Shown here in pieces: positions 12,523 to 63,428 of a stretch of 64,000 bases of DNA. Source of the stretch: Escherichia coli (GTDB lineage: Bacteria > Pseudomonadota > Gammaproteobacteria > Enterobacterales > Enterobacteriaceae); NCBI RefSeq assembly GCF_003790525.1, contig NZ_CP033635.1. The stretch is one strand, 5' to 3'. The position numbers were made by a program, and so were the translations under genes. The notes below the pieces were generated by a model, which did not search any database, was not told the DNA's origin, and saw nothing but the letters and a program-made list of their open reading frames with translations. The first letter of the stretch is position 1; each line of letters starts with the position of its first letter.

Positions 12523-12708
12523 TTAGTGGTTATTCGCTGCCAGATCGGCTTCGCTTAGCTGAGTGGCCGCGAGCACCTGGTCACGATCAATGCCCTGTTC
12601 CAGCATGCGCAAGGCAATTTTAATGGCTTGTTCATGCATGCCTTCTAATTTACCCTCCTGCCAGCCAATTTGGTGTCCTTCCTGCCGTAGCCGTTCAGCA
12701 ATAGTCAT
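12523..12708 (-). CDS. ypaA: YpaA, small Rpn C-terminal-domain protein (stand-alone copy of the rpnB 3-prime module)
   Basis: 61-aa ORF ([39 protein letters not shown]…) near-identical to the C-terminal region of the adjacent rpnB. About 190 bp of DNA is a direct repeat of the rpnB 3-prime end, including the AAGGAGAG Shine-Dalgarno. Confidence 0.8.
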   Translation of the reverse strand: MTIAERLRQEGHQIGWQEGKLEGMHEQAIKIALRMLEQGIDRDQVLAATQLSEADLAANNH

Positions 12709-12720
12709 TAATCTCTCCTT

Positions 12721-13680
12721 TTAATAACAGTTCGGAATATCAGCATCAGTGAGTTGGGTTGTCGCCAGCACAATCTCACGTTCAAAGCCCTGTTCCAGCA
12801 TGCGCAAGGCAATTTTAATGGCTTGTTCATGCATACCTTCTACTTTGCCTTTCTGCAAACCCTCCAACTTCCCCTCCTGCCAACCTTCAATCTTACCCTT
12901 CTGCCAGCCAATTTGATGCCCTTCCTGCCGCAGCCGTTCAGCAATAGTCATTAATCTCTCCTTTTGTAGTGGTGAACGTTCGGCAATCTCCTCAATAAAA
13001 CGGGTGAAACGGGAGGTATCGCCGCATTGCAGCAGATAATTAAACAGCGTTTGTAGCTGGCTGTCATTAGTGAAGCCTCTAACCAAAAGCGTGGTGATCC
13101 TGTCGACCATACCGATTAAATCGCGGTCGCGAATATGCTTTTGAATCAGTTCCAGCAGAGCTATACGCCGATGTTGCATGATCTCATCGTCAGGTACGAT
13201 GGTGATATCCACCAACGGAAAAGCTTCGGTGTACAACTGCCGGGCAAGTTGCGGATCGTCAAACTCATCCAGCCAGTTGAGTGAGTACGGGTAGGGCGAG
13301 GTTTCGCCATGATAAAACAGCAATGGTACCACCAGCGGGACTCTGTCATAGCCTTTGTCCAGGTGACGCTGCATGGCGGCAGTGGCATAGCGCATTAGCC
13401 GAAAAGCCATATTCTTTTCTGCAGAGCTTTGATGTTCAATCACGCAGTAGATATAACCGTCACCCTCGCTGGTTTCCACAGACCACAAAACATCCGAGTA
13501 GTAAGCGCGTAAACTTTTTTCAATAAAGCTGGTGGGTTCCAGGCGTAAGGTTTGCAGGTTGCAAAGCTTGCGCAGCGGCTCTGGTAGATGTATTTCCAGA
13601 AAATCTCGCGCCGTATCGGGCGAGAACATAAAGGTTTTAAATACCGCATCATGCGGGGAGGAGGTTGTTGATTCGGTCAT
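12721..13680 (-). CDS. rpnB: RpnB (YfaD), recombination-promoting nuclease, transposase_31 / PD-(D/E)XK family
   Basis: 319-aa ORF with conserved Rpn N-terminus ([18 protein letters not shown]…) and a C-terminal repeat region ([27 protein letters not shown]). Confidence 0.85.
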
Positions 13681-13872
13681 GGTTGTCCGTCACCTGATAT
13701 TTATGATGACGCGACATTACGGTTATCCCGGGCCTTTGACATCTGCCAGTTTCAGCCTTTGCGAGACGTTTTCAGAGGAATTTTCACTGCGTTGCAACGT
13801 ATACATTGGGCACGGAATCGTGTGCGCAAAAATGCCCGGTAACCACATGCTTACCGGGCATCAGAAGGGAGT

Positions 13873-18208: not shown

Positions 18209-19567
18209 ATGTTGAGTATTTTTAAACCAGCGCCACACAAAGCGCGCTTACCTGCTGCGGAGATCGATCCGACTTATCGTCGATTGCGCTGGCAAATTTT
18301 CCTGGGGATATTCTTTGGCTATGCTGCTTACTATTTGGTTCGTAAGAACTTTGCGCTCGCTATGCCTTATCTGGTTGAGCAGGGATTCTCACGCGGTGAT
18401 TTAGGTTTTGCCCTTTCGGGGATCTCGATTGCTTATGGATTTTCGAAATTCATCATGGGTTCGGTATCGGATCGCTCGAATCCGCGCGTTTTCCTGCCCG
18501 CAGGTTTGATTCTGGCGGCGGCAGTGATGTTGTTTATGGGCTTTGTGCCGTGGGCGACGTCGAGCATTGCGGTGATGTTTGTACTGTTGTTCCTCTGCGG
18601 TTGGTTCCAGGGGATGGGATGGCCGCCGTGCGGTCGTACTATGGTGCACTGGTGGTCGCAGAAAGAACGTGGCGGCATTGTGTCAGTGTGGAACTGTGCG
18701 CACAACGTCGGTGGTGGTATTCCGCCGCTGCTGTTCCTGCTGGGGATGGCCTGGTTCAATGACTGGCACGCGGCGCTCTATATGCCCGCTTTCTGCGCCA
18801 TTCTGGTGGCACTGTTCGCCTTTGCGATGATGCGCGATACCCCGCAATCCTGTGGCCTGCCGCCGATCGAAGAGTACAAAAATGATTATCCGGACGACTA
18901 TAACGAAAAAGCGGAACAGGAGCTGACGGCGAAGCAAATCTTCATGCAGTACGTGCTGCCGAACAAACTGCTGTGGTACATCGCTATCGCCAACGTGTTC
19001 GTTTATCTGCTGCGTTACGGCATCCTCGACTGGTCACCGACTTATCTGAAAGAGGTGAAACACTTCGCGCTGGATAAATCCTCCTGGGCCTACTTCTTCT
19101 ATGAGTATGCGGGCATTCCGGGCACCCTGCTGTGCGGCTGGATGTCGGATAAAGTCTTCCGTGGCAACCGTGGGGCCACCGGTGTCTTCTTTATGACACT
19201 GGTGACCATCGCGACTATCGTTTACTGGATGAACCCGGCAGGTAACCCAACCGTCGATATGATTTGTATGATTGTTATCGGCTTCCTGATCTATGGCCCT
19301 GTGATGCTGATCGGTCTACATGCGCTGGAACTGGCACCGAAAAAAGCGGCAGGTACGGCAGCGGGTTTTACCGGGCTGTTTGGTTACCTCGGCGGTTCGG
19401 TGGCGGCGAGCGCGATTGTTGGCTACACCGTGGACTTCTTCGGCTGGGATGGCGGCTTTATGGTAATGATTGGCGGCAGCATTCTGGCGGTTATCTTATT
19501 GATTGTTGTGATGATTGGCGAAAAACGTCGCCATCAGGAATTACTGCAAAAACGCAACGGAGGCTAA
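18209..19567 (+). CDS. glpT: GlpT, glycerol-3-phosphate:phosphate antiporter (MFS)
   Basis: 452-aa ORF, full-length match to GlpT ([31 protein letters not shown]…). Confidence 0.95.
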
Positions 19568-20656: not shown

Positions 20657-20682
20657 CAGGATGGCGTTCATGCGCCATCCTG
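20657..20682. terminator. Hairpin after glpQ, overlapping the 3-prime end of the convergent LysR gene
   Basis: caggatggcgc-ttcat-gcgccatcctg, 11-bp perfect stem. Confidence 0.55.
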
Positions 20683-21567
20683 TCTCATATCAAATTTTCC
20701 ACTCTCCACTAATTGTTCTGTGCACATTTGTAGTAAAAACAGTGGACTGCCTTCTACCGGCTTTTCTTTAGCCAGCAACGAAATCTGTCGATAGAAGGTT
20801 GGTTCGAGAGGAACGGAACACAATTCATCTGCAATGGTTTTCAGCGTTAACTCTGGTAATAAGGCGATGCCTAATCCCTGTCGAATAAAACTGATCGCTG
20901 TATCCGGGTGATTAAATTCATATTTTATCTGTGGGGTAATATTCTTTTCTTTAAATAGTGCCATAATGCTTAATTCATAGCGTCCTTTACTAATAATTAA
21001 TGGTTCACCCATTAACTCTTCCACTGTAATAGTGCTGTTTTTTGCCAGAGCATGGTTGGGCGGTAACACTACGGTGAATTTATCCTGATAAATGGGCACG
21101 GAGTACATTCCGCTCACCGGAAAATGAACAAAACCGGCATCAATGGATTCATTCTGAAGGGAATCAATAATCGCTGTGCTATTTTCCTCAAAAGGAATAA
21201 TTTTTATATTCGGATGATGAATTTCAAAGTAGCGAATCACAGCCGGTAAGATACAGGCACAGACGCTGGGGAAACAACCAAGTCTCAGCGTTCTTTGAGG
21301 GTTCTGCTTTTCCTGCTCGGCTATCTCTTTTACTGCGTTCACTTCCCGATTAATGGCGCGCAGATGATGCATAATGCGGTGACCTGCAGAGGTCAGTTGT
21401 ATAGCTTTACGGCGATCGCGTAACAGTATATTCACGCCAAGTTCTTGTTCGAGGGCAGCAATTGCCTGACTTACCGCCGACTGCGTCATGAACAATCGCT
21501 TGCTGGCTTCAGTAAAGCCACCGTAATCCAGCACGGCGAGTAAAGAATTTATTTGGGTAAGAGTCAT
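20668..21567 (-). CDS. yfaH: LysR-family transcriptional regulator (full-length counterpart of yfaH)
   Basis: 299-aa ORF with N-terminal LysR HTH (…FTEASKRLFMTQSAVSQAIAALEQELG…) and substrate-binding domain. Intact here; I recall yfaH as a truncated pseudogene in K-12. Confidence 0.8.
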   Translation of the reverse strand: MTLTQINSLLAVLDYGGFTEASKRLFMTQSAVSQAIAALEQELGVNILLRDRRKAIQLTSAGHRIMHHLRAINREVNAVKEIAEQEKQNPQRTLRLGCFPSVCACILPAVIRYFEIHHPNIKIIPFEENSTAIIDSLQNESIDAGFVHFPVSGMYSVPIYQDKFTVVLPPNHALAKNSTITVEELMGEPLIISKGRYELSIMALFKEKNITPQIKYEFNHPDTAISFIRQGLGIALLPELTLKTIADELCSVPLEPTFYRQISLLAKEKPVEGSPLFLLQMCTEQLVESGKFDMRQDGA

Positions 21568-21718
21568 TAGAGTTTGCTAATCAATAATATTAAAACGATT
21601 AATTTCTCTAATAGCATGCCGCCATTTATACTTCTGTTCTGCAAAGTACATCACAATTTGACGTAACCGCAGTAACGGGAGTGTTGTCTGCGTGCGTCAT
21701 CCTGACAGGCGGTAGGGT

Positions 21719-22909
21719 ATGAAAGAGAAGTTATGGACGAAGGATTTTTGGGCAATAACCATCATCAGTTTTATTATTTTCTTCGTCTTTTATGTTTTAC
21801 TAACATTGTTGCCAATTTATATCTCAGACCGCTTGCATGCCTCTCCTGATAAAGCAGGTTTGTTGGTGACTTTATTTTTAATTGCCGCCATTGTTATTCG
21901 CCCCTTTGCCGGGCAATGGGTGGGTAAATATTCGAATAAAACTATTCTGGGGCTCTCTTCTCTGGCCTTCTTGGTGGTCACTGCGCTGTATCCTTTTTGC
22001 CACTCAATTGAATCACTGCTTTTTATTCGGGTGCTTCATGGTATTACCTTCGGGGTTATCACTACGGTAAAAGGAACGATTTCCGCGCGGCTGATCCCGG
22101 CCTCCCGACGTGGGGAGGGCATCAGTTTTTTCTCTCTGGCAATGGGGCTGGCAATGGTGGTCGGGCCGTGGATTGGCCTGAATATGGCGCGCTGGGAGGC
22201 CTTTAATATGGCTTTCTGGTTATGCACCGGCGTGGCAGCGGTGGGGATTATTCTGTCGCTGATTATGACAGTGCCGCCGGTTATCAGCCATGCTGATGGT
22301 TCAACGCCGAAAATGGGCTTCGCCGCCATGTTCGATCGCGCGGCGTTGCCATTTGCGATGGTCACCTTTTTTATGACCTTTTCGTATGCCGGGGTTTCTG
22401 CTTTTCTGGCGCTTTATGCACGCGAACTTAACCTGATGTCGGCAGCCAGTAATTTCCTGCTTTGCTACGCTATCTTCCTGATGATCTGCCGTACCTTTAC
22501 CGGCAATGTCTGCGACAAAAAAGGACCGAAATATGTGGTTTACCCTTGCCTTGTGTTCTTTACGGTTGGACTGGTGGTTCTCGGCTACACCCAGGGAAGC
22601 ATAATGATGGTTGTTTCTGGCGCGTTGATTGGTATCGGGTATGGTTCCGTGACGCCAGTTTTTCAGACGCAGATTATCAGTTCAGTGGAACCGCATAAAA
22701 TCGGTGTCGCAAACTCCCTCTTCTTCAATGCGATGGATGCAGGCCTGGCGCTGGGAGCCTGTGTGATGGGGATGATGGTTGCACATACTGGCTACCGAAT
22801 GATTTATCTGCTGGGTGCACTATTAGTGGTAGTGGCTGGTGGAGTCTATGAGCTGCAAATGAAGGGCAAAAGCGGTGTCATGCTAGTAGCGGCAAAAGAA
22901 ATTCATTAA
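21719..22909 (+). CDS. MFS transporter (12-TM, efflux-type), divergent from the LysR regulator
   Basis: 396-aa ORF, hydrophobic throughout with MFS loop motifs; not an ORF I associate with K-12 at this position. Confidence 0.75.
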   Translation: MKEKLWTKDFWAITIISFIIFFVFYVLLTLLPIYISDRLHASPDKAGLLVTLFLIAAIVIRPFAGQWVGKYSNKTILGLSSLAFLVVTALYPFCHSIESLLFIRVLHGITFGVITTVKGTISARLIPASRRGEGISFFSLAMGLAMVVGPWIGLNMARWEAFNMAFWLCTGVAAVGIILSLIMTVPPVISHADGSTPKMGFAAMFDRAALPFAMVTFFMTFSYAGVSAFLALYARELNLMSAASNFLLCYAIFLMICRTFTGNVCDKKGPKYVVYPCLVFFTVGLVVLGYTQGSIMMVVSGALIGIGYGSVTPVFQTQIISSVEPHKIGVANSLFFNAMDAGLALGACVMGMMVAHTGYRMIYLLGALLVVVAGGVYELQMKGKSGVMLVAAKEIH

Positions 22910-28204: not shown

Positions 28205-31200
28205 ATGCGGATTATTTTTCTACGCAAGGAGTATTTATCTTTACTCCCGTCAATGATTGCATCTCTTTTCTCTGTTAACAGTGTCGCGGAGGTTTTGGAT
28301 TCATGCCAGGGATATGATATCAAAGCGAGTTGTCAGGCCAGCAGGCAAAGCCTTTCAGGCATTACGCAGGACTGGAGCATCGCCGATGGGCAATGGGTGA
28401 TTTTTTCGGGTATGGCCAATAATGCCAGCGGTGGTGCCGTATTTTTGCAGCAAAGTGCTGAATTTACGATATCACCACAAAATGAAACAGGGATGACCCT
28501 GTTTGCTAATAACTCGATTAGTGGCGAATATAATAATGGCGGAGCTATCTTTGCTAAAGAAAACTCAACGATAAATCTTGCGAATGTTATTTTCGACAGT
28601 AACGTTGCAGGAGGCTATGGCGGAGCAATCTATTCTGCGGGAACAAACGATGCCGGTGATATGGATTTAAATATCACTAATGCAATATTTGCGAATAATA
28701 TCGCCAATGATGGTAAAGGTGGCGCTATTTATTCTATCAATAATGATATTTATTTAAGTGATGTCATTTTTGATAATAATCAGGCATATACATCAACCAG
28801 CTATAGTGATGGGGACGGCGGTGCCATTGATGTTACGGATAATAGTACGGATAACACACATCTTTCAGGAAAAACGATAATTAATAATACCTCCTTTACC
28901 AATAACTATGCAGAAGGTTATGGCGGAGCAATTTATACCAGCAGCACCACATCCCCGTATCTTATTGATATTTCTGTTGATGATAATTATGACCAAAACA
29001 ATGGTGTGATGATTGATGAAAATAACAGCGCCTCGGGATATGACCATTCGGCGACGGCAGCGGCGGGGGGCTTTATGTATATCGGTCATAGTGTGGCTGA
29101 ATTTAACATTGCCGCCGATAAAACGCTGGTAATAGGCAATACCAGCAACGATGGCGCGATTGATTCTCTTGCCGGAACGGGAGTCATCGTGAAAGAGGGA
29201 GCGGGAGAGTTAGTCCTCAATGCCGACAATAATGCGTTTACCGGCGAGATGAGTATCCAGAATGGCGAGGTGACGCTGGGGCGCAGCGATGAGTTAATGA
29301 ATGTCGGCGACACGCACTGTCAGAGCGATCCGCAGGATTGCTTTGGTCTGATGGTCGGCAGCACTGTTCATTCTGAGTATCAGGCAGAACTGAATGTTGG
29401 CAATACACAACAAACGTTTGTGCACTCATTAACCGGTTTTGCTAATGGCATTTTGAATATCGACGCAGGCGGCAATGTTACCGTAAACCAGGGCGGTTTT
29501 TCCGGCTCGATTCAGGGTGAAGGACAGTTGACGGTAGCGCAAGATGGCAGCTATCTCCTGACAGGGGAGCAGTCGATGGCATTAACCGGCGATATTGTGG
29601 TGGAAGATAACGCCGTATTGTCGCTAGCGGGGAATCAGGCCGATTTACGGGCAATGCAGAGCGATCCGCAATCGATCGTGCTAAATGGCGGAGTATTGGA
29701 TCTCTCTGATTTCACCACTTGGGATGGCGATAGCTCATACAATGACGGTCTGCAAATCAGCGGCAGTGGGGGGACAGTGATTGGCAGTAATGATGTCGTT
29801 GATATCAGCAGTGGCGATGATTTACATATTGGCGGCAGTGATGCCAGCCAGAATGGCGTTTATGTCGTCATTAATGCGGGGGATCAGCGCGTAACGCTGG
29901 CGAATAACAACGGTTATCTCGGTAATACGCAAATCGCCTCCGGTACGCTTGAAGTCAGCGATAATTCGCAATTGGGGGACACAAGTTACAACCGTTCAGT
30001 GATCTTCACAGATCCCCAACAACACAGTGAAATGGATGTGACGACTGATGTTGACACTCGCTCGGCTACAACAGGTCAGGGCAGGAATATTGAAATGCGC
30101 GCTGATGGCGAAATACACGTTGAGGATGGCGTAGATACGCAATGGGGCGGGTTGATGGCGGATAGTACCGGGCAACAACTGGATAGCGTAAGCACGTTGA
30201 CTAAAAGTGGCGGCGGGACGCTGGAGTTGACCGCCAGCGGCACTGCGACGTCTGCGGTACGTGTGGAGGACGGAACGCTAAAAGGTGAAGCGGAGAATAT
30301 TATTCCTTATGTTTCTTCACTGTGGGTGGGGGAAGACGGTGTTTTTGAAACCGGGAAAAATCAGGATATTCGTTCAATCGATGCCACCTCTGGCGGCGAT
30401 ATCGACATAACCGATGGTACTGTGTTGCGATTGACGCAGCAGGATACGAACCAGGCGCTGGATGCCTCGCTGTTTAGCGGCGACGGTACGTTGGTGAATG
30501 CCACCGATGGTGTGACGCTGACAGGCGAGCTTAATACCAACCTTGAAACTGACAGCCTGACTTATCTTTCAGACGTGACGGTCAATGGTGATCTAACTAA
30601 TACTTCCGGTGCTGTCAGTCTGCAAAATGGCGTTGCTGGCGACACGCTCACGGTAAACGGTGATTACACCGGTGGCGGTACGTTGTTTCTCGACAGCGAA
30701 TTAAACGGCGATGACTCGGCAAGCGACCAACTGGTGTTGAACGGTAATACTGCTGGCAACACGACCGTGGTAATTAATCCCATTACGGGTATTGGTGAGC
30801 CGACATCTACGGGCATTAAAGTGGTTGATTTCGCAGCCGATCCAACGCAATTTCAAAACAATGCGCAGTTCAGTCTGGCGGGCAGCGGCTACGTCAATAT
30901 GGGAGCGTATGACTACACGCTGGTGGAAGATAACAACGACTGGTATCTGCGATCGCAAGAAGTAACGCCACCATCGCCACCTGATCCAGACCCGACTCCA
31001 GATCCTGATCCTACGCCGGATCCTGATCCAACACCCGACCCGGCTCCAGCCCCTACGCCTGCCTACCAGCCGGTGCTGAATGCCAAAGTTGGTGGCTATC
31101 TCAATAACCTACGTGCGGCAAATCAGGCATTTGTGATGGAGCGACGCGATCACGCTGGTGGCGATGGTCAGACGCTGAATTTACGTGTTATCGGCGGAGA

Positions 31201-31969
31201 TTATCATTACACAGCAGCGGGGCAACTGGCTCAGCATGAAGACACTTCTACGGTGCAGCTTAGCGGCGACTTGTTTAGCGGGCGCTGGGGCATGGATGGC
31301 GAGTGGATGCTTGGGGCGGTTGGTGGCTACAGTGATAACCAGGGCGACAGCCGCTCGAATATGACCGGAACTCGCGCCGATAACCAGAACCACGGTTATG
31401 CCGTTGGTCTGACCTCAAGCTGGTTCCAGCACGGTAATCAGAAGCAGGGGGCCTGGCTGGATAGCTGGCTGCAATACTCGTGGTTTAACAATGATGTTTC
31501 CGAACATGAAGATGGCGCGGATCATTACCACTCATCGGGGATTATCGCCTCGCTGGAAGCCGGGTATCAGTGGTTACCGGGGCATGGAGTGGTGATTGAA
31601 CCACAGGCGCAGGTGATTTATCAGGGCGTGCAGCAGGATGATTTTACCGCCGCTAACCATGCGCGGGTGTCACAATCGCAGGGTGATGATATTCAAACGC
31701 GGCTGGGTTTACACAGCGAATGGCGTACCGCGGTTGGTGTCATACCAACATTAGATCTGAATTATTATCACGATCCCCATGCGACGGAAATTGAAGAAGA
31801 TGGCAGCACTATCAGTGACGATGCGGTGAAGCAACGGGGTGAAATAAAAGTGGGAATAACGGGCAATATCAGTCAGCGAGTTTCGCTGCGTGGTAGCGTG
31901 GCGTGGCAGAAAGGGAGTGATGATTTTGCCCAGACGGCAGGGTTTTTGTCGATGACAGTGAAATGGTAA
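28205..31969 (+). CDS. yfaL: YfaL (EhaC-type) AIDA-like autotransporter adhesin
   Basis: 1254-aa ORF with N-terminal signal sequence, pectate-lyase-like repeat passenger (GGAIY motifs), proline-rich linker and C-terminal beta-barrel translocator domain. Confidence 0.9.
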   Translation: MRIIFLRKEYLSLLPSMIASLFSVNSVAEVLDSCQGYDIKASCQASRQSLSGITQDWSIADGQWVIFSGMANNASGGAVFLQQSAEFTISPQNETGMTLFANNSISGEYNNGGAIFAKENSTINLANVIFDSNVAGGYGGAIYSAGTNDAGDMDLNITNAIFANNIANDGKGGAIYSINNDIYLSDVIFDNNQAYTSTSYSDGDGGAIDVTDNSTDNTHLSGKTIINNTSFTNNYAEGYGGAIYTSSTTSPYLIDISVDDNYDQNNGVMIDENNSASGYDHSATAAAGGFMYIGHSVAEFNIAADKTLVIGNTSNDGAIDSLAGTGVIVKEGAGELVLNADNNAFTGEMSIQNGEVTLGRSDELMNVGDTHCQSDPQDCFGLMVGSTVHSEYQAELNVGNTQQTFVHSLTGFANGILNIDAGGNVTVNQGGFSGSIQGEGQLTVAQDGSYLLTGEQSMALTGDIVVEDNAVLSLAGNQADLRAMQSDPQSIVLNGGVLDLSDFTTWDGDSSYNDGLQISGSGGTVIGSNDVVDISSGDDLHIGGSDASQNGVYVVINAGDQRVTLANNNGYLGNTQIASGTLEVSDNSQLGDTSYNRSVIFTDPQQHSEMDVTTDVDTRSATTGQGRNIEMRADGEIHVEDGVDTQWGGLMADSTGQQLDSVSTLTKSGGGTLELTASGTATSAVRVEDGTLKGEAENIIPYVSSLWVGEDGVFETGKNQDIRSIDATSGGDIDITDGTVLRLTQQDTNQALDASLFSGDGTLVNATDGVTLTGELNTNLETDSLTYLSDVTVNGDLTNTSGAVSLQNGVAGDTLTVNGDYTGGGTLFLDSELNGDDSASDQLVLNGNTAGNTTVVINPITGIGEPTSTGIKVVDFAADPTQFQNNAQFSLAGSGYVNMGAYDYTLVEDNNDWYLRSQEVTPPSPPDPDPTPDPDPTPDPDPTPDPAPAPTPAYQPVLNAKVGGYLNNLRAANQAFVMERRDHAGGDGQTLNLRVIGGDYHYTAAGQLAQHEDTSTVQLSGDLFSGRWGMDGEWMLGAVGGYSDNQGDSRSNMTGTRADNQNHGYAVGLTSSWFQHGNQKQGAWLDSWLQYSWFNNDVSEHEDGADHYHSSGIIASLEAGYQWLPGHGVVIEPQAQVIYQGVQQDDFTAANHARVSQSQGDDIQTRLGLHSEWRTAVGVIPTLDLNYYHDPHATEIEEDGSTISDDAVKQRGEIKVGITGNISQRVSLRGSVAWQKGSDDFAQTAGFLSMTVKW
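30961..31062 (+). repeat. Tandem degenerate 18-bp repeats encoding the Pro-rich linker of YfaL
   Basis: Encodes PSPPDPDPTPDPDPTPDPDPTPDPAPAPT; repeated ccNgaTccNgaNccNacNcc units. Confidence 0.8.
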
Positions 31970-32907: not shown

Positions 32908-33606
32908 TTACTGTGTAGATAACGAGAGAATTTTTCGTGCGCGCTCGGTAAATCCACTACTTACGTGATGAGTAATAAAATTACAAACACCTTCAACGTT
33001 ATTATTTTTTAGCATATCTAAAATAGTCGCATGGCCACGATTTGAATTGGTGATATATTCCGTAGTGAAATCCAGTCGATAACGGATAGCAAGTAAACGT
33101 GCGGATATCAATTGGTGTGCCTGAGAGATGTATTTATTATCAGCGTATTTAACAAACACATAATGAAAATCATGATCCAGTTTAAGATAAGCCTGAGTAT
33201 CGCGCTCGGCATTAATTTTTGCTGATTTTGATAGTATACTATTTAGTTCAATGATGACATTGTTTGCATTCTTTTCCATTGCTTCACTAATTGCACCCTG
33301 CTCCAGAATTACTCGCATTTTTATGAGGTCATTAATATCTTTATCTGTTACGGAAAAAACGAATGTTCCGCTGCGTGGAATGATATTGATCAGATTTTCA
33401 TTGTGACTAAGTAAAATAAAAGCTTCACGAATAGGTGTTTTACTTACCGCCAGAATATTCGAAAGTTCATTTTCACTTATCGGTTGCCCAAGACTGAGAT
33501 CGCCATGAATTATCATATCCCTGATTTTTTCTTTGATGACCTGTGTTACGGATTTTGGTATCTCAATTGATATGTGACTTAAGTCACGTTTCGCTTTATC
33601 TCTCAT
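32908..33606 (-). CDS. GntR-family (FadR/FCD subfamily) transcriptional regulator; accessory-island gene
   Basis: 232-aa ORF with N-terminal GntR-type winged HTH (…LSENELSNILAVSKTPIREAF…) and C-terminal all-helical FCD-like domain; codons are AT-rich. Confidence 0.8.
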   Translation of the reverse strand: MRDKAKRDLSHISIEIPKSVTQVIKEKIRDMIIHGDLSLGQPISENELSNILAVSKTPIREAFILLSHNENLINIIPRSGTFVFSVTDKDINDLIKMRVILEQGAISEAMEKNANNVIIELNSILSKSAKINAERDTQAYLKLDHDFHYVFVKYADNKYISQAHQLISARLLAIRYRLDFTTEYITNSNRGHATILDMLKNNNVEGVCNFITHHVSSGFTERARKILSLSTQ

Positions 33607-33670
33607 TCCTTTGCCCCTTATTAAGCTGCTGGTCCATTATATGTAATCATTTTATCAATGAAGGTATCTA

Positions 33671-33753
33671 ATATATCAGATATGACAAAAATGATATATC
33701 TTATTGTTGTAGCTTAGTGTTTCAATCAATGATCAAGCTGATATATCAGATAT
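33671..33753. promoter_or_regulatory. Two copies of a 13-bp operator-like motif in the divergent regulator / transporter promoter region
   Basis: atatatcagatat occurs at 33671-33683 and again at 33741-33753; the core atatc-a-gatat is an inverted repeat. Confidence 0.45.
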
Positions 33754-33843
33754 AACACATCACCTTTTGAACTGGATTATTTTTTACGTAATATCCACTT
33801 CGGGCAGTACTCTTATTCATTGAACCACAAAAGGTGAAACAAA

Positions 33844-35172
33844 ATGAGCAGTCCTCAGAAAGATTTGTATGAAGCCATTTCTATTGTGAAAAGGAAGATT
33901 ATTCCGTTAGCATTTATTCTGTATTTTTTTAACTATATGGATCGTGTTAACATCGGATTTGCCGCTTTACGCATGAATGAATCCCTTGGTATTACACCAG
34001 AGGATTTTGCTAATATATCTTCAATATTTTTTGTGTCCTATTTGATTTTTCAAATTCCGAGCAGTATTGGATTGCAAAAGTTAGGTGCAAGAAAATGGAT
34101 TAGCGCCATTATTGTTGGTTGGGGAACAGTAACAACGTTAATTTTCTTTGCCAAAGACACCCAGCATATATTGCTCGCTCGGGTCTTTTTGGGAATATTT
34201 GAAGCGGGGTTTTTCCCTGGCATGGTTTACTACCTGGCATGTTGGTTCCCGGCGCGTGAACGTGGAAAAGTGAATAGCTTTTTTATGTTATCAATCGCAG
34301 TTGCATCTGTGCTGGCGGCACCAATGTCTGGTTGGATTATTGAACATATGAATACCGGTAACTATGAAGGATGGCGCTGGCTTTTTGCTATTGAAGGCAT
34401 TCCTACGGTGTTATTGGGGGCGCTGACCTTTTATTTACTGCCAGATCGTCCGGAAAAAGCCCGCTGGCTTACACCATCGCAAGTCACCGCATTGGTCGAT
34501 AAACTTAATTCTGATAACGAAAAAGCCGCAGCATTAAATAAAAATACAAATGCATCTTTTCTGTCAATCATTAAAAATCCAGTATTACTACAACTCTCAT
34601 TTGCTTATATGTTTATTCAGGCAGCGGCGTTGGCGGCAAATTACTGGTTACCGGGGTTGGTTAAAGGATTTTCATCGGATTTCACAGATACCGATGTCGG
34701 TTTGATTATGAGTATTCCGTTTATTTTCGCGATGTTCAGTATGCCATTATGGGGATGGCATTCCGATAAAAAGAATGAAAGGAAATGGCATGCCGCACTA
34801 CCGATGTTGGTTGCAGGTTGCGGTTTTTTAATGATCGCACTTGTACCTTCGATGACGCTGCGCATGATGGGATTAACATTATACGGTGTAGGCATTCTCA
34901 GTTATTACGGTCCGTACTGGGCTTTACCCTCAGCTTTACTTTCACCATCAGGCCTGGCAATCAGTATTGCGTTTATTAACTCTTGTTCAAGTTTGGGTGG
35001 TTTTCTGATCAATAAATCACTTGGCTATGTTTCTACACATTATGGAGCCACGGGGATATTTATTGTTGAGGCGATTCTTTGCTTTATCGCCGTAGCTATT
35101 TTGTTATCAATGAAAATTGATAATAAAAAAGATAACGCCCAGAAAGACAATGTTATTTCACATGCTAAATAA
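33844..35172 (+). CDS. MFS transporter of the anion:cation symporter (ACS) family, sugar-acid type (DgoT/RhmT/GudP-like)
   Basis: 442-aa ORF with motifs shared with the RhmT in this window (…DRVNIGFAA…, [11 protein letters not shown]…, WFPxRER). Confidence 0.8.
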   Translation: MSSPQKDLYEAISIVKRKIIPLAFILYFFNYMDRVNIGFAALRMNESLGITPEDFANISSIFFVSYLIFQIPSSIGLQKLGARKWISAIIVGWGTVTTLIFFAKDTQHILLARVFLGIFEAGFFPGMVYYLACWFPARERGKVNSFFMLSIAVASVLAAPMSGWIIEHMNTGNYEGWRWLFAIEGIPTVLLGALTFYLLPDRPEKARWLTPSQVTALVDKLNSDNEKAAALNKNTNASFLSIIKNPVLLQLSFAYMFIQAAALAANYWLPGLVKGFSSDFTDTDVGLIMSIPFIFAMFSMPLWGWHSDKKNERKWHAALPMLVAGCGFLMIALVPSMTLRMMGLTLYGVGILSYYGPYWALPSALLSPSGLAISIAFINSCSSLGGFLINKSLGYVSTHYGATGIFIVEAILCFIAVAILLSMKIDNKKDNAQKDNVISHAK

Positions 35173-35184
35173 ATGAGGTTATTT

Positions 35185-36387
35185 ATGAAGATTACATCTG
35201 TAGAAATTTTTGACTGCGAACTCAAAAAAAGAGATCAAACTATGGCCTCTTATAATCCAGTACTTATTCGGGTTAATACCGATGCTGGAATAAGTGGTGT
35301 TGGCGAAGTAGGATTAGCCTATGGTGCAGGTGCAAAATCTGGTGTTGGTATTATCAGAGATTTAGCCCCTCTCATCATTGGTGAAGATCCGTTGAACATT
35401 GAGAAGATTTGGGAATTCCTCTTCAGGAAAACATTTTGGGGAATGGGCGGTGGTAATGTTTTTTACGCAGGTATGAGCGCTATTGATATTGCCTTATGGG
35501 ATATTAAAGGTAAATATTTAAACGTGCCGGTTTATCAACTACTGGGGGGAAAGACTAACGATAAATTGAGAACTTACGCCAGTCAGTTACAATTTGGTTG
35601 GGGCGAAAAAAGGCAAATATTAGTAACGCCTGAAGAGTATGCAGAGGCAGCGCGTGCCGCTATTGCAGAAGGTTATAATGCGATAAAAGTTGATCCGCTT
35701 GAAATCGATCTGCATGGCGGCGATTGTGTCTTTCAGAACAAAAATAGAAATTACTCTGGCTTATTACTGGCCGAACAATTAAAAATGGGCGAGGCAAGAA
35801 TTGCCGCTATGCGTGAAGCAATGGGCGACGATGCTGATATTATTGTAGAGATTCATTCTCTTCTAGGAACAAATTCAGCGATCCAGTTTGCCAAAGCAAT
35901 AGAGAAATATCGTATTTTTCTCTATGAGGAGCCAATTCATCCATTAAATTCGGATAATATGCAGAAAGTTGCCCGTTCAACATCGATTCCGATAGCAACA
36001 GGTGAGCGTTCTTATACTCGCTGGGGATATCGTGATTTACTGGAAAAACAATCAATTGCGGTAGCTCAACCTGATTTGTGTCTTTGTGGTGGCATTACAG
36101 AGGGAAAGAAAATTTGTGATTATGCCAATATATATGACACAACCGTTCAGGTACATGTTTGTGGCGGGCCTGTTTCAACAGTAGCGGCGCTGCATATGGA
36201 AACTGCAATACCTAACTTTATTATTCATGAACATCATACCAATGCGATGAAAGCATGTATTCGGGAACTTTGTACTTACGATTATCAACCCGAGAATGGC
36301 TATTATGTCGCGCCAGAGTTGCCTGGGCTTGGTCAGGAATTAAACGATGAAATCGTACAACAATATCTTGCCTATGTGATCAAATAA
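35185..36387 (+). CDS. Enolase-superfamily sugar-acid dehydratase, GalD / mandelate-racemase subgroup (D-galactonate-dehydratase-like)
   Basis: ORF 35173-36387. Start preferred at ATG 35185 (MKITSVEIFD…) with a GAGG Shine-Dalgarno at 35175-35178. Has the KxK motif (WDIKGK), the metal-ligand region and the QPDLxxxGGITE motif typical of DgoD-like dehydratases. Confidence 0.8.
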   Translation: MKITSVEIFDCELKKRDQTMASYNPVLIRVNTDAGISGVGEVGLAYGAGAKSGVGIIRDLAPLIIGEDPLNIEKIWEFLFRKTFWGMGGGNVFYAGMSAIDIALWDIKGKYLNVPVYQLLGGKTNDKLRTYASQLQFGWGEKRQILVTPEEYAEAARAAIAEGYNAIKVDPLEIDLHGGDCVFQNKNRNYSGLLLAEQLKMGEARIAAMREAMGDDADIIVEIHSLLGTNSAIQFAKAIEKYRIFLYEEPIHPLNSDNMQKVARSTSIPIATGERSYTRWGYRDLLEKQSIAVAQPDLCLCGGITEGKKICDYANIYDTTVQVHVCGGPVSTVAALHMETAIPNFIIHEHHTNAMKACIRELCTYDYQPENGYYVAPELPGLGQELNDEIVQQYLAYVIK

Positions 36388-59280: not shown

Positions 59281-59365
59281 GACGGATAAGGCGTTTACGC
59301 CGCATCTGGCATTCAGTGCAAATGCCAGATAAGACACTAACGCGTCTTATCTGGCCTACAGGTGA
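59281..59365. repeat. REP elements between convergent rcsC and rcsB
   Basis: ggacggataaggcgtttacgccgcatctggca … gccagataagacac…gcgtcttatctggcctac REP motifs. Confidence 0.75.
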
Positions 59366-63016: not shown

Positions 63017-63109
63017 AAAAAAAACCGGATGCGAGGCATCCGGTTGAAATAGGGGTAAACAGACATTCAGAAATGAATGACGGTAATAAATAAAGTTAAT
63101 GATGATAGC
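63017..63109 (-). ncRNA. micF: MicF antisense sRNA (regulator of ompF)
   Basis: Minus strand reads gctatcatcattaactttatttattaccgtcattcatttctgaatgtctgtttacccctatttcaaccggatgcctcgcatccggtttttttt, which is the MicF sequence including its terminator hairpin and U-tract; divergent from ompC. Confidence 0.9.
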
Positions 63110-63428
63110 GGGAGATATTCTAGTTGCGAGTGAAGGTTTTGTTTTGACATTCAGTGCTGTCAAATACTTAAGAATAAGTTATTGATTTTAACCTTGAATT
63201 ATTATTGCTTGATGTTAGGTGCTTATTTCGCCATTCCGCAATAATCTTAAAAAGTTCCCTTGCATTTACATTTTGAAACATCTATAGCGATAAATGAAAC
63301 ATCTTAAAAGTTTTAGTATCATATTCGTGTTGGATTATTCTGCATTTTTGGGGAGAATGGACCTGCCGACTGATTAATGAGGGTTAATCAGTATGCAGTG
63401 GCATAAAAAAGCAAATAAAGGCATATAA

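What the first reader, a model, noticed from the sequence alone, without database searches (positions are those of the whole stretch)
30961..31062. Proline-rich tandem repeat in the YfaL autotransporter linker
Tandem 18-bp repeats encode (PDPDPT)n between the passenger and the beta-barrel domain. Such linkers often vary in length between strains by slippage, which changes how far the adhesin projects from the cell surface and can introduce assembly errors.
Basis: seen in the sequence. Interest (0 to 1): 0.35.

Follow-up and report, generated by a model that had tools for sequence, protein, structure and literature searches.

The report
Proline-rich spacer in YfaL adhesin
This is a short proline- and aspartate-rich spacer between the stalk and the membrane barrel of the E. 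coli surface adhesin YfaL; its length differs between strains, but it is an ordinary, stable feature shared by most proteins of this family.

Summary
Window 28205-31969 (+) is yfaL, an AIDA-I-type autotransporter adhesin also called YfaL/EhaC. Codons 926-943 (nt 30980-31033) encode a perfect (PDPDPT)x3, followed by a degenerate unit PDPAPAPT. Together they form a 31-residue Pro-rich coil (aa 922-952). It lies between the last strands of the autochaperone/beta-helix (DWYLRS) and the alpha-helix that plugs the 12-strand barrel.

Length does vary between strains. The segment from WYLRS to YQP is 22-38 aa across Escherichia alleles. In about 100 evenly sampled complete E. coli genomes, roughly 63% have 34 aa, 20% have 28 aa and 9% have 36 aa (the window's class). 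Rarer classes have 26, 29 and 38 aa. The indels carry slippage signatures.

It is not hypermutable:
- The three DNA units differ at 3-5 of their 6 third-codon positions, and the longest exact repeat is 11 nt.
- Every sampled length change keeps the reading frame.
- All 37 genomes sharing the window's allele have the same length.

About 75% of 150 diverse homologues carry a comparable Pro-rich tract at this position, so this is a generic family feature. Contig ends in public short-read assemblies pile up in the tract.

Any effect of linker length on function is untested.

The parts
28205..31969 (+). yfaL coding sequence: 1254 aa plus stop. An AIDA-I-type (type Va) autotransporter adhesin, YfaL/EhaC.
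   Evidence: ORF and translation. NCBIfam NF007285 equivalog scores 2743.9 bits against a cut-off of 1459. Annotated as yfaL in 5,419 of 5,426 complete E. coli genomes. Synteny is nrdA-ypaB-yfaL-ubiG.
30590..30922 (+). Autochaperone domain (Pfam AC_1, aa 796-906), the C-terminal part of the beta-helical passenger.
   Evidence: Pfam PF18883, E = 4.8e-18. Sequence matches to the IcsA autochaperone 3ML3/5KE1 and to AIDA-I 4MEE. Foldseek to 3ML3: rmsd 2.1 A.
30938..30967 (+). Last beta-strands of the passenger (DWYLR and QEVT, aa 912-921). This is the upstream anchor of the linker.
   Evidence: The AF2 model has strands at query residues 122-126 and 128-131. W913, Y914 and L915 are nearly invariant or invariant across 89 homologues.
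30968..31060 (+). Pro-rich, acidic linker: aa 922-952, PPSPP(DPDPTP)3DPAPAPTP. It has no regular secondary structure.
   Evidence: Translation. AF2 models it as coil with pLDDT 72-84, flanked by regions above 90. It is about 30 aa longer than the equivalent connection in AIDA-I 4MEE.
30980..31033 (+). Three tandem 18-nt units, each encoding PDPDPT. They are perfect at the peptide level and 72-83% identical at the DNA level.
31034..31057 (+). Degenerate fourth unit, PDPAPAPT. This is the most variable position between alleles: PDPEPT, PDPDPT, PDPGPT, PDPAPDPT or PDPIPA.
   Evidence: Codon-level comparison of 14 alleles.
31082..31126 (+). Alpha-helical segment (aa 960-974, AKVGGYLNNLRAANQ), predicted to occupy the barrel pore.
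   Evidence: AF2 helix at query residues 170-184. It aligns to the helix region of the AIDA-I transport unit 4MEE. Its position inside the pore is inferred from solved autotransporter structures.
31181..31900 (+). 12-strand outer-membrane beta-barrel (Pfam Autotransporter, aa 993-1232).
   Evidence: Pfam PF03797, E = 3.1e-33. The AF2 model has 12 long strands. Top Foldseek hit is 4MEE, TM(target) 0.91, rmsd 2.0 A.
30970..30981 (.). Left arm (ACCATCGCCACC) of a perfect 12-nt inverted repeat that brackets the tract and the helix-coding DNA. It is probably coincidental, but it is used in a fold-back assembly artefact.
   Evidence: the repeat finder pair I1. The fold-back contig start in L032 is joined exactly at these arms. 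The arm is absent from alleles with CCGACGCCGCCG at this site.
31157..31168 (.). Right arm (GGTGGCGATGGT) of the same inverted repeat.

Best explanation
The tract encodes a proline-rich, acidic, unstructured spacer. Pro at every second residue favours an extended, polyproline-II-like shape.

The spacer joins the folded C-terminal cap of the YfaL beta-helical passenger (the autochaperone) to the alpha-helix that sits in the pore of the protein's own 12-strand outer-membrane barrel. Because it can form neither helix nor strand, it keeps the stalk base clear of the barrel loops and the inner LPS layer. It stays covalently attached to the barrel.

The peptide repeat is old and is held at the amino-acid level. 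The DNA copies have drifted apart at synonymous sites, so the region is only weakly prone to slippage. Rare in-frame slippage or microhomology events between 5-12-nt direct repeats add or remove PX or PXPX units. The resulting length alleles (22-38 aa) are then inherited stably within lineages or moved by recombination together with the rest of this very polymorphic gene.

Shown here: gene identity, position, repeat anatomy, length polymorphism, stability within alleles, and generality across the family. Inferred: the extended conformation, the spacer role, the slippage mechanism, and near-neutrality of small length changes.
For: **Identity and architecture**
- Family models identify YfaL and place the tract between the autochaperone and the barrel.
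- Alignment to AIDA-I 4MEE shows YfaL has about 30 extra residues between WYL(R/T)S and the helix.
- AF2 model: mean pLDDT 94.5, pTM 0.90. Residues 922-952 are coil with pLDDT 72-84, followed by a helix at 960-974 and then the barrel.
- Top fold match is 4MEE, TM 0.91.

**Constraint on the peptide, not the DNA**
- All 13 differences among the three units are at third codon positions.
- The same unit in different alleles is more alike (16.75 of 18 nt) than different units within an allele (13.6 of 18 nt). This argues for an old duplication with no homogenisation by frequent slippage or conversion.

**Polymorphism**
- 14 sequenced alleles give 26-38 aa. The protein database adds 22 and 24 aa.
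- In about 100 evenly spaced rows of 5,419 genomes: 34 aa in 63, 28 aa in 20, 36 aa in 9, 26 aa in 3, 29 aa in 2, 38 aa in 1.

**Slippage signatures**
- An exact 12-nt tandem duplication, CCCGACCCAACC x2, in MS 16-3.
- 12- and 24-nt deletions bounded by CCCGAC or GATCC repeats in GmF052 and TUM2330.
- Loss of one CCG from a CCGCCG run.

**Stability**
- 37 of 37 genomes at least 99% identical to the window allele, from humans, poultry, dogs, marsupials, fish and water, keep the same length.
- 1,921 genomes are at least 99% identical to the K-12 tract over 251 nt.

**Family generality**
- In 150 representatives of 50%-identity clusters, 75% have at least 15 aa with at least 25% Pro between the WYL anchor and the helix.
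- Median length is 37.5 aa; the 10th-90th percentiles are 25-55 aa.
- Many carry near-identical PDPDPT or PEPTPDP motifs.

**Anchored, not released**
- A YfaL(786-1250) display fusion, which includes the tract, ran at its full calculated 80 kDa and fractionated with the outer membrane (PMC7138890).
- Group 8 autotransporters, which include YfaL, are described as outer-membrane anchored (PMC9289746).
Against: - No experiment or computation here measures conformation, reach or any phenotype of different linker lengths.
- AF2 gives the tract moderate confidence (72-84) rather than very low, so it may pack against the barrel loops instead of being a free rod. I could not inspect the coordinates.
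- The census is a systematic sample of about 100 rows plus identity bands, not a full tabulation. For rows I did not fetch, length classes are inferred from matched length.
- Frameshifted or truncated variants in or next to the tract exist in draft data (P0027, P0074, P0077). One complete genome has a 56-aa in-frame deletion that ends in the repeat (L007). So the tract is not entirely benign.
- yfaL is reported to be under positive selection (PMC9110714), so drift may not be the whole story.
Confidence: 0.72

Rival explanations
1. The tract is a contingency locus. Frequent slipped-strand mispairing rapidly changes linker length, or shifts the frame to switch YfaL on and off within a population.
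For: It is a tandem coding repeat in a surface-adhesin gene. Out-of-frame variants that truncate the protein before the barrel exist in draft assemblies: P0027 has a 1-nt deletion in the tract, and P0074 lacks the tract out of frame. Contig ends pile up here, which could in principle reflect heterogeneity between reads.
Against: There are only three units, 72-83% identical, and the longest exact repeat is 11 nt. Units are not homogenised. All length differences in about 100 sampled complete genomes are multiples of 3. 37 of 37 genomes sharing the window allele, and 1,921 sharing the K-12-type tract, show no length change. The frameshifted forms have few member sequences (1 to 6) and may be sequencing errors.
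Confidence: 0.04
2. The tract is a surface-exposed epitope that is diversified by immune or phage selection, as proposed for the proline-rich repeat regions R1 and R2 of Bordetella pertactin. Length and residue changes would then be adaptive, not neutral.
For: The fourth unit varies in residue as well as length between alleles: E, A, D, G, I or N. yfaL is among the top genes in scans for positive selection in E. coli (PMC9110714). The passenger of the window allele is only 63-83% nt identical to K-12, against 95-97% for neighbouring genes. Pertactin alleles differ in the number of GGFGP and PQP repeats (PMC3966384; PMC8931430).
Against: The first three units are identical in peptide sequence in most alleles, and their differences are purely synonymous. 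That is the opposite of diversifying selection on this stretch. The tract sits at the membrane-proximal base of a roughly 900-aa stalk, likely buried under LPS. There are no serological data. In the pertactin study read here, no protective antibody mapped to R1 or R2.
Confidence: 0.12
3. The tract is a processing or release site. The seven Asp-Pro bonds, or a protease site, allow the passenger to be cleaved from the barrel, for example at acid pH in the stomach.
For: The tract has 7 Asp-Pro dipeptides. From general protein chemistry, Asp-Pro is the most acid-labile peptide bond. Some relatives, such as AIDA-I and Ag43, are processed between the passenger and the translocation unit; this is from my own knowledge and was not tested here.
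Against: A fusion carrying YfaL 786-1250 stayed at full size and in the outer membrane (PMC7138890). Group 8 autotransporters, including YfaL, are described as anchored (PMC9289746). Homologous linkers often use Glu, Val or Thr in place of Asp, so Asp-Pro chemistry is not conserved. Acid hydrolysis of Asp-Pro is slow at 37 C.
Confidence: 0.04
4. The tract is neutral low-complexity filler. Any unstructured peptide of any length would do, and both the repeat and its polymorphism have no functional meaning.
For: The length range is wide both within Escherichia (22-38 aa) and across the family (25-55 aa at the 10th-90th percentiles, up to about 110). AIDA-I manages with about 10 residues at this position.
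Against: The PXPX pattern and high Pro content recur in 75% of diverse homologues despite complete turnover of the actual sequence. Within YfaL the peptide units are conserved while synonymous sites are near saturation. Both point to selection for composition.
Confidence: 0.08

Closest known systems
Pro-rich linkers of other AIDA-I-type (type Va) autotransporters, such as cluster representatives P0078, P0123, P0135 and P0146
   Same: They occupy the same position: directly after the WYL(R/T)S end of the autochaperone and before the pore helix. They share the PXPX periodicity, often with PDPDPT, PEPTPDP or PDPVPDP motifs, and have similar lengths (median 37.5 aa).
   Different: Sequence, unit and length turn over completely between clusters. 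Some are much longer (up to about 110 aa) and some use Val, Glu or Lys instead of Asp. None of these was checked for strain-level polymorphism.
Bordetella pertactin repeat regions R1 (GGFGP)n and R2 (PQP)n
   Same: These are proline-rich tandem peptide repeats in a beta-helical autotransporter passenger. Copy number differs between alleles on a slow, population-level timescale, and R2 is disordered in the crystal structure (PMC8931430; PMC3966384).
   Different: Pertactin's repeats are loops within or at the end of a passenger that is cleaved from its barrel. They are discussed as vaccine-driven antigenic variants. The YfaL tract is the tether to the barrel helix, and no immune role is known.
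AIDA-I transport unit (PDB 4MEE)
   Same: It has the same autochaperone, helix and 12-strand barrel architecture. The sequence match has E = 1.7e-35. The fold match has TM(target) 0.91 and rmsd 2.0 A.
   Different: AIDA-I has only about 10 residues between WYLTS and the helix region, with no Pro-rich repeat. YfaL has about 42.
Proline-rich rigid spacers of other E. coli envelope proteins: the TonB (EP)n/(KP)n region and the OmpA hinge (from my own knowledge, not tested here)
   Same: Alternating X-Pro repeats thought to act as extended spacers that span a compartment of the cell envelope.
   Different: They are periplasmic rather than on the cell surface, occur in unrelated proteins, and carry different charge patterns.
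Simple-sequence contingency loci of Neisseria and Haemophilus surface genes (from my own knowledge)
   Same: A tandem repeat inside the coding region of a surface-protein gene, where slippage changes the repeat number.
   Different: Those loci have many perfect copies of 1-7-nt units whose indels shift the reading frame at high rates. Here there are three imperfect 18-nt units, in-frame changes only, and no within-lineage variation.

Membership tests
YfaL/EhaC (AIDA-I-family type Va autotransporter adhesin) | Full-length match to the curated equivalog model above its cut-off. | tested here: met
   NF007285 scores 2743.9 bits against a cut-off of 1459, covering residues 1-1254 of the protein and positions 1-1250 of the model.
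YfaL/EhaC (AIDA-I-family type Va autotransporter adhesin) | C-terminal 12-strand autotransporter beta-barrel preceded by a pore helix. | tested here: met
   PF03797 at aa 993-1232. The AF2 model has a helix at 960-974 followed by 12 strands. Foldseek to 4MEE gives TM 0.91.
YfaL/EhaC (AIDA-I-family type Va autotransporter adhesin) | Beta-helical passenger ending in a type 1 autochaperone domain. | tested here: met
   PF18883 AC_1 at aa 796-906, plus PATR and Chlam_PMP repeats in the passenger. IcsA autochaperone matches.
YfaL/EhaC (AIDA-I-family type Va autotransporter adhesin) | Chromosomal position between nrdA/ypaB and ubiG. | tested here: met
   Annotation of the matching record and of K-12.
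YfaL/EhaC (AIDA-I-family type Va autotransporter adhesin) | N-terminal Sec signal peptide. | not tested
   No signal-peptide predictor was run. The literature uses YfaL residues 1-28 as the signal peptide.
YfaL/EhaC (AIDA-I-family type Va autotransporter adhesin) | Adhesin or biofilm activity when expressed. | not testable with these tools
   Only literature statements are available (PMC9110714 citing Roux et al. 2005).
Polymorphic proline-rich repeat region of an autotransporter (pertactin R2-like) | Tandem Pro-rich peptide repeat. | tested here: met
   (PDPDPT)x3 plus a degenerate unit, with 47% Pro.
Polymorphic proline-rich repeat region of an autotransporter (pertactin R2-like) | Repeat or unit number differs between strains of the species. 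| tested here: met
   22-38 aa between fixed anchors. At least six length classes in complete genomes.
Polymorphic proline-rich repeat region of an autotransporter (pertactin R2-like) | Variation is linked to immune escape or antibody recognition. | not testable with these tools
   No serological data are available. Peptide conservation of units 1-3 argues against it.
Phase-variable simple-sequence contingency locus | Long run of perfect short repeat units. | tested here: not met
   There are 2.6-3 copies at 82% match, and the longest exact repeat is 11 nt.
Phase-variable simple-sequence contingency locus | Repeat-number changes shift the reading frame and toggle expression. | tested here: not met
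   All sampled complete-genome length differences are multiples of 3. Only rare frameshifted forms appear in draft data.
Phase-variable simple-sequence contingency locus | Variation among very close relatives. | tested here: not met
   37 of 37 genomes with at least 99% identity to the window allele have identical length.

The most novel reading that the evidence does not exclude
Linker length is a tuned trait rather than drift. The lineage-specific 22-38-aa alleles might set how far the YfaL stalk base is lifted through the LPS core and O-antigen layer, and so co-vary with O-antigen or capsule type. Alternatively, the string of acid-labile Asp-Pro bonds might act as a pH-triggered release point for the passenger during gastric passage. 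A further possibility is that the tract is a recurrent breakpoint for inactivating yfaL: an in-frame 56-aa deletion and frameshifts end in it.
Probability: 0.07. Interest if true: 0.45.

Novelty: new member of a known kind. Interest (0 to 1): 0.15.

Why it matters
The biological weight is small. This is one more case of a generic design in AIDA-I-type autotransporters: a Pro-rich tether between stalk and barrel whose length drifts slowly between lineages.

Practical uses:
- The tract is a cheap, stable length marker of yfaL allele classes. The window carries the minority 36-aa class, seen in phylogroup-F-like strains such as SMS-3-5.
- People who use YfaL(786-1250) as a surface-display anchor should know that natural linkers of 22-38 aa exist and could be tried.
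- Short-read assemblies often break in this tract, producing 'partial' YfaL proteins. These should not be read as pseudogenes.

If linker length were shown to matter for display through O-antigen, that would be a modest but useful rule for adhesin biology and display engineering.

Tried and rejected
- **Hypermutable or phase-variable repeat.** Rejected. The units are imperfect, changes are in-frame only, and length is invariant within allele lineages.
- **IS insertion or large repeat expansion in Shigella sonnei as the cause of contig breaks.** Not supported. A scaffold spans the site with a 250-N gap, which is close to the roughly 230 nt expected for a normal allele. The contig ends are yfaL sequence, not IS sequence. 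I had no complete S. sonnei genome, so this stays unresolved.
- **A de Bruijn loop caused by perfect repeats in the allele whose contigs start at the tract.** Rejected. That allele, shared by Nissle 1917, has an ordinary 34-aa tract with no exact repeat of 30 nt or more.
- **Paralogous copies of the tract elsewhere in the genome as the cause of breaks.** Rejected. There is one matching place per genome.
- **A real inversion between the 12-nt inverted repeats (P0017, 'MGSGSGVGSGSG...').** Rejected in favour of a fold-back artefact. The contig starts with the reverse complement of its own downstream sequence.
- **RNA families.** The Rfam scan found nothing in or near the tract.
- **Literature.** I found no paper on the YfaL linker or its polymorphism. 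Ko et al. 2012 and Drobnak et al. 2015 are not held in the library.
- **Protein-database search.** The first homologue search returned mostly fragments and no full-length YfaL cluster, so it could not be used for a census.
Full report
**What is at the coordinates**

The window carries a 1254-codon ORF at 28205-31969 on the + strand. Its translation contains ...YTLVEDNNDWYLRSQEVTPPSPPDPDPTPDPDPTPDPDPTPDPAPAPTPAYQPVLNAKVGGYLNNLRAANQAF....

- The hexapeptide PDPDPT is repeated perfectly three times (codons 926-943, nt 30980-31033).
- A degenerate unit, PDPAPAPT, follows at nt 31034-31057.
- Tandem Repeats Finder reports period 18, 2.6 copies, 82% matches and score 59. The repeat finder finds the same family.
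- This is the only perfect tandem of three or more copies of a 4-10-aa peptide unit in any of the six frames of the 64-kb window. It holds 18 of the protein's 32 prolines.

**What the gene is**

The ORF matches the NCBIfam equivalog model for 'AIDA-I family autotransporter adhesin YfaL/EhaC' end to end, at 2744 bits against a cut-off of 1459.

Pfam finds passenger repeats, an autochaperone domain (AC_1, aa 796-906) and the autotransporter beta-domain (aa 993-1232). A 651-nt segment around the tract matches yfaL in 5,419 of 5,426 complete E. coli genomes, once per genome. The gene lies between nrdA/ypaB and ubiG, as in K-12.

The window's segment is 100% identical to strain 165, SMS-3-5 and 31 other genomes. 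The window is not exactly the strain 165 record, because glpT is intact in the window but frameshifted there.

**Where the tract sits in the protein**

Sequence alignment to the solved AIDA-I transport unit (4MEE) matches the autochaperone up to WYL(R/T)S. It resumes at the helix region. AIDA-I has about 10 residues in between, and YfaL has about 42.

I built an AlphaFold2 model of aa 791-1254 on an alignment of 89 diverse homologues (mean pLDDT 94.5, pTM 0.90). It shows:
- beta-strands at DWYLR and QEVT;
- a stretch with no secondary structure at aa 922-952, where pLDDT falls to 72-84;
- a short strand at AYQP and a helix at aa 960-974;
- a 12-strand barrel.

Foldseek's best PDB match is 4MEE (TM 0.91 on the target, rmsd 2.0 A). 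The IcsA autochaperone also matches. So 'between the passenger and the beta-barrel' is right. More precisely, the tract is the tether between the autochaperone cap and the pore helix.

**Anatomy of the DNA repeat**

The three 18-nt units share only 13, 13 and 15 of 18 nt. All 13 differences are at third codon positions, and the longest exact direct repeat is 11 nt (GATCCTGATCC).

Across eight alleles, the same unit in different strains is more alike (mean 16.75 of 18 nt) than different units within a strain (13.6 of 18 nt). The duplication is therefore older than the allele divergence, and the peptide is conserved while synonymous sites drift. The copies are not being homogenised, as they would be if slippage or conversion were frequent.

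**Does length vary between strains?**

Yes. In 14 alleles that I fetched and translated, the stretch between WYLRS and YQP is 26, 28, 29, 34, 36 or 38 aa. Every length difference in the 651-nt segment lies in the tract. Protein-database fragments add 22- and 24-aa forms.

I took two evenly spaced samples down the ranking of all 5,419 genomes, 40 and 60 rows:

| Linker length | Rows (of 100) | Note |
|---|---|---|
| 34 aa | 63 | K-12, O157:H7, ST131, Nissle |
| 28 aa | 20 | O111:H8 and many bovine strains |
| 36 aa | 9 | the window's class |
| 26 aa | 3 | |
| 29 aa | 2 | |
| 38 aa | 1 | |
| 56-aa in-frame deletion | 2 (one strain, the last row of both samples) | |

For rows I did not fetch, the class is inferred from the matched length. 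The identity bands agree. With a 251-nt K-12 query, 1,921 genomes are at least 99% identical, so they have the same length. A further 1,235 fall in the 80-90% band, where the short alleles lie.

**Mechanism of the length changes**

The indels look like slipped-strand or microhomology events:
- MS 16-3 has an exact tandem duplication of CCCGACCCAACC.
- GmF052 lacks 12 nt between two CCCGAC copies and one CCG from a CCGCCG run.
- TUM2330 lacks 24 nt between GATCC repeats.

Steps are 3, 6, 12, 21 or 24 nt, that is PX or PXPX units, rather than whole 18-nt units. The large deletion in VTB97022v joins an upstream ADPT to the DPT of a repeat unit and removes the end of the autochaperone.

**Rate**

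All 37 genomes at least 99% identical to the window allele have the same length. They come from people, chickens, dogs, a possum, a koala, a pangolin, fish and water. The next 23 genomes, at about 97% identity, also share that length.

All sampled changes preserve the frame. Together with the imperfect units, this rules out a contingency-locus reading. The tract is polymorphic on the timescale of lineages, not cultures.

**Is it special to YfaL?**

No. An exhaustive HMMER search of 1.84 billion cluster representatives gave 3,577 homologues of the C-terminal 464 aa. Among the top 150, 75% have at least 15 residues with at least 25% Pro between the WYL anchor and the helix. Median length is 37.5 aa (10th-90th percentiles 25-55 aa, maximum about 110).

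Many carry motifs such as PDPEPTPDPDPT, PEPTPDPEPT or PDPVPDPDPI. The composition and the PXPX rhythm are conserved while the sequence turns over. That argues for selection on an extended, non-folding, mostly acidic spacer, not on a specific motif.

**How it most likely works**

- *Shown:* the position, the lack of predicted regular structure, the conserved composition and the slow in-frame polymorphism.
- *Inferred from general knowledge of type Va secretion and of X-Pro repeats:* the tract cannot form helix or strand, so it stays extended. It spaces the folded stalk base from the barrel loops and inner LPS, and remains the covalent tether.
- *Supporting literature:* a display fusion carrying YfaL 786-1250 ran at its full calculated size and fractionated with the outer membrane (PMC7138890). 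Reviews group YfaL with outer-membrane-anchored adhesins (PMC9289746).
- *Geometry:* at about 3 A per residue in an extended form, the 6-8-residue differences between the common alleles amount to roughly 2 nm. This is arithmetic on an assumed conformation, not a measurement.

Whether such a difference matters is untested.

**Rivals**

- *Antigenic diversification, as in pertactin R1/R2* (PMC8931430, PMC3966384). This gains some colour from the variable fourth unit and from reports that yfaL is under positive selection (PMC9110714). Units 1-3 are conserved in peptide, however, and the tract lies at the membrane-proximal end of the stalk.
- *An acid-labile Asp-Pro release site.* This is chemically possible, but it conflicts with the intact anchored fusion, and Asp is not conserved in homologous linkers.
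- *Pure filler.* The family-wide composition argues against this.

**Assembly**

Many 'partial' YfaL proteins in public short-read assemblies end in the 5' part of the tract or up to about 60 codons before it (P0024, P0048, P0058, P0080, P0104, P0112). Others start at a contig edge in its 3' part.

Of 28 further listed members of the two clusters of C-terminal fragments (303 and 519 member sequences), 20 start between ...PEPDPTPDPEPTPAYQ and ...VGGY. Some of these lie on contigs of hundreds of kilobases.

An S. sonnei scaffold has 250 Ns over the tract. One contig starts with a fold-back joined at a perfect 12-nt inverted repeat that brackets the tract (30970-30981 and 31157-31168).

I excluded genomic paralogues and long exact repeats as causes. 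Some breaks occur in metagenomes, where mixed alleles would fork the assembly graph at this polymorphic site. The cause in isolates is unresolved. Finished genomes show no sign of miscounted repeats.

**Comparison and novelty**

The closest known things are:
- the equivalent Pro-rich tethers of other AIDA-I-type autotransporters;
- pertactin's polymorphic proline-rich repeats;
- by analogy only, the TonB and OmpA proline-rich spacers.

The tract fails every test for a phase-variable simple-sequence locus. I found no paper that describes the YfaL linker or its polymorphism. The census is therefore new in detail but not in kind, and I file it as a new member of a known kind.

**Verdict**

The finding is correct and ordinary. 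Interest is 0.15. The more striking feature of this gene is outside the finding. The passenger of the window's allele is only 63-83% nt identical to K-12, while nrdA and ubiG are 97.5% and 95.3% identical.

Noticed in passing
window 28370-30470 (yfaL passenger): The passenger-coding part of this yfaL allele is only 63-83% nt identical to K-12 yfaL. In contrast, nrdA is 97.5%, ubiG is 95.3% and the yfaL C-terminal third is 92-96% identical. These are deep allelic classes of the passenger, consistent with published positive-selection scans that flag yfaL (PMC9110714). This is far more divergent than the linker polymorphism.
   Followed up: partly
window 30940-31170; loci L017-L032: Contig ends of public short-read assemblies (E. 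coli, Shigella sonnei and S. flexneri isolates, and metagenomes) pile up in and just around the Pro-rich tract. This produces many 'partial' YfaL proteins. One S. sonnei scaffold has 250 Ns across the tract. The cause is not resolved: paralogues and long exact repeats are excluded, and strain mixtures explain only the metagenome cases.
   Followed up: partly
window 30970-30981 and 31157-31168; L032:1-420: A perfect 12-nt inverted repeat (ACCATCGCCACC / GGTGGCGATGGT, 175 nt apart) brackets the tract and the helix-coding DNA. An 87-kb NCBI contig starts with a fold-back joined exactly at these arms. This gives a spurious protein N-terminus, MGSGSGVGSGSG, which is the reverse-complement reading of the tract; the cluster has 53 member sequences. 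The repeat is absent from alleles with a different PPSPP coding sequence, so it is probably coincidental.
   Followed up: yes
L007 (E. coli VTB97022v, NZ_CP178670.1), equivalent to window ~30845-31015: This complete genome has an in-frame deletion of about 56 aa that joins AADPT (upstream) to the DPT of a repeat unit. It removes the last strands of the autochaperone (YTLVEDNNDWYLRS) and would probably impair secretion. Draft data also hold frameshifted or truncated forms in or next to the tract (P0027, P0074, P0077).
   Followed up: partly
window 30983, 31001, 31007, 31019, 31025: There are five GATC (Dam methylation) sites within 46 nt, against a window average of 4.7 per kb. The cluster arises because Asp-Pro is encoded GAT-CCN. 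It is probably a by-product of codon use: 5 of 7 Asp codons are GAT, close to normal usage.
   Followed up: no
window 32908-36387: Between ubiG and gyrA the window has three genes that K-12 lacks at this site: a frameshifted GntR-family regulator, an MFS transporter and a mandelate racemase/muconate-lactonizing-family enzyme. In K-12, ubiG directly abuts gyrA.
   Followed up: no
window 18209-19567 (glpT): glpT is an intact 452-aa ORF in the window, but it is annotated as frameshifted in the otherwise matching record of strain 165 (a 1-nt length difference). So the window comes from a close relative or from a corrected sequence. Loss of GlpT is a known route to fosfomycin resistance (from my own knowledge).
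   Followed up: partly
window ~12523-13681 (locus L034 12524-13681): An ISNCY-family transposase and a truncated hypothetical gene lie between yfaU and glpC.
   Followed up: no
window 63017-63110 (-) and 59280-59356 (+): Rfam matches above the gathering score: the MicF antisense RNA upstream of ompC (116.8 bits) and naRNA4/CssrE (65.5 bits). Both are expected at this locus.
   Followed up: no
window 20668-22909: A LysR-family regulator and an MFS transporter lie between glpQ and inaA. I did not compare this stretch with K-12.
   Followed up: no
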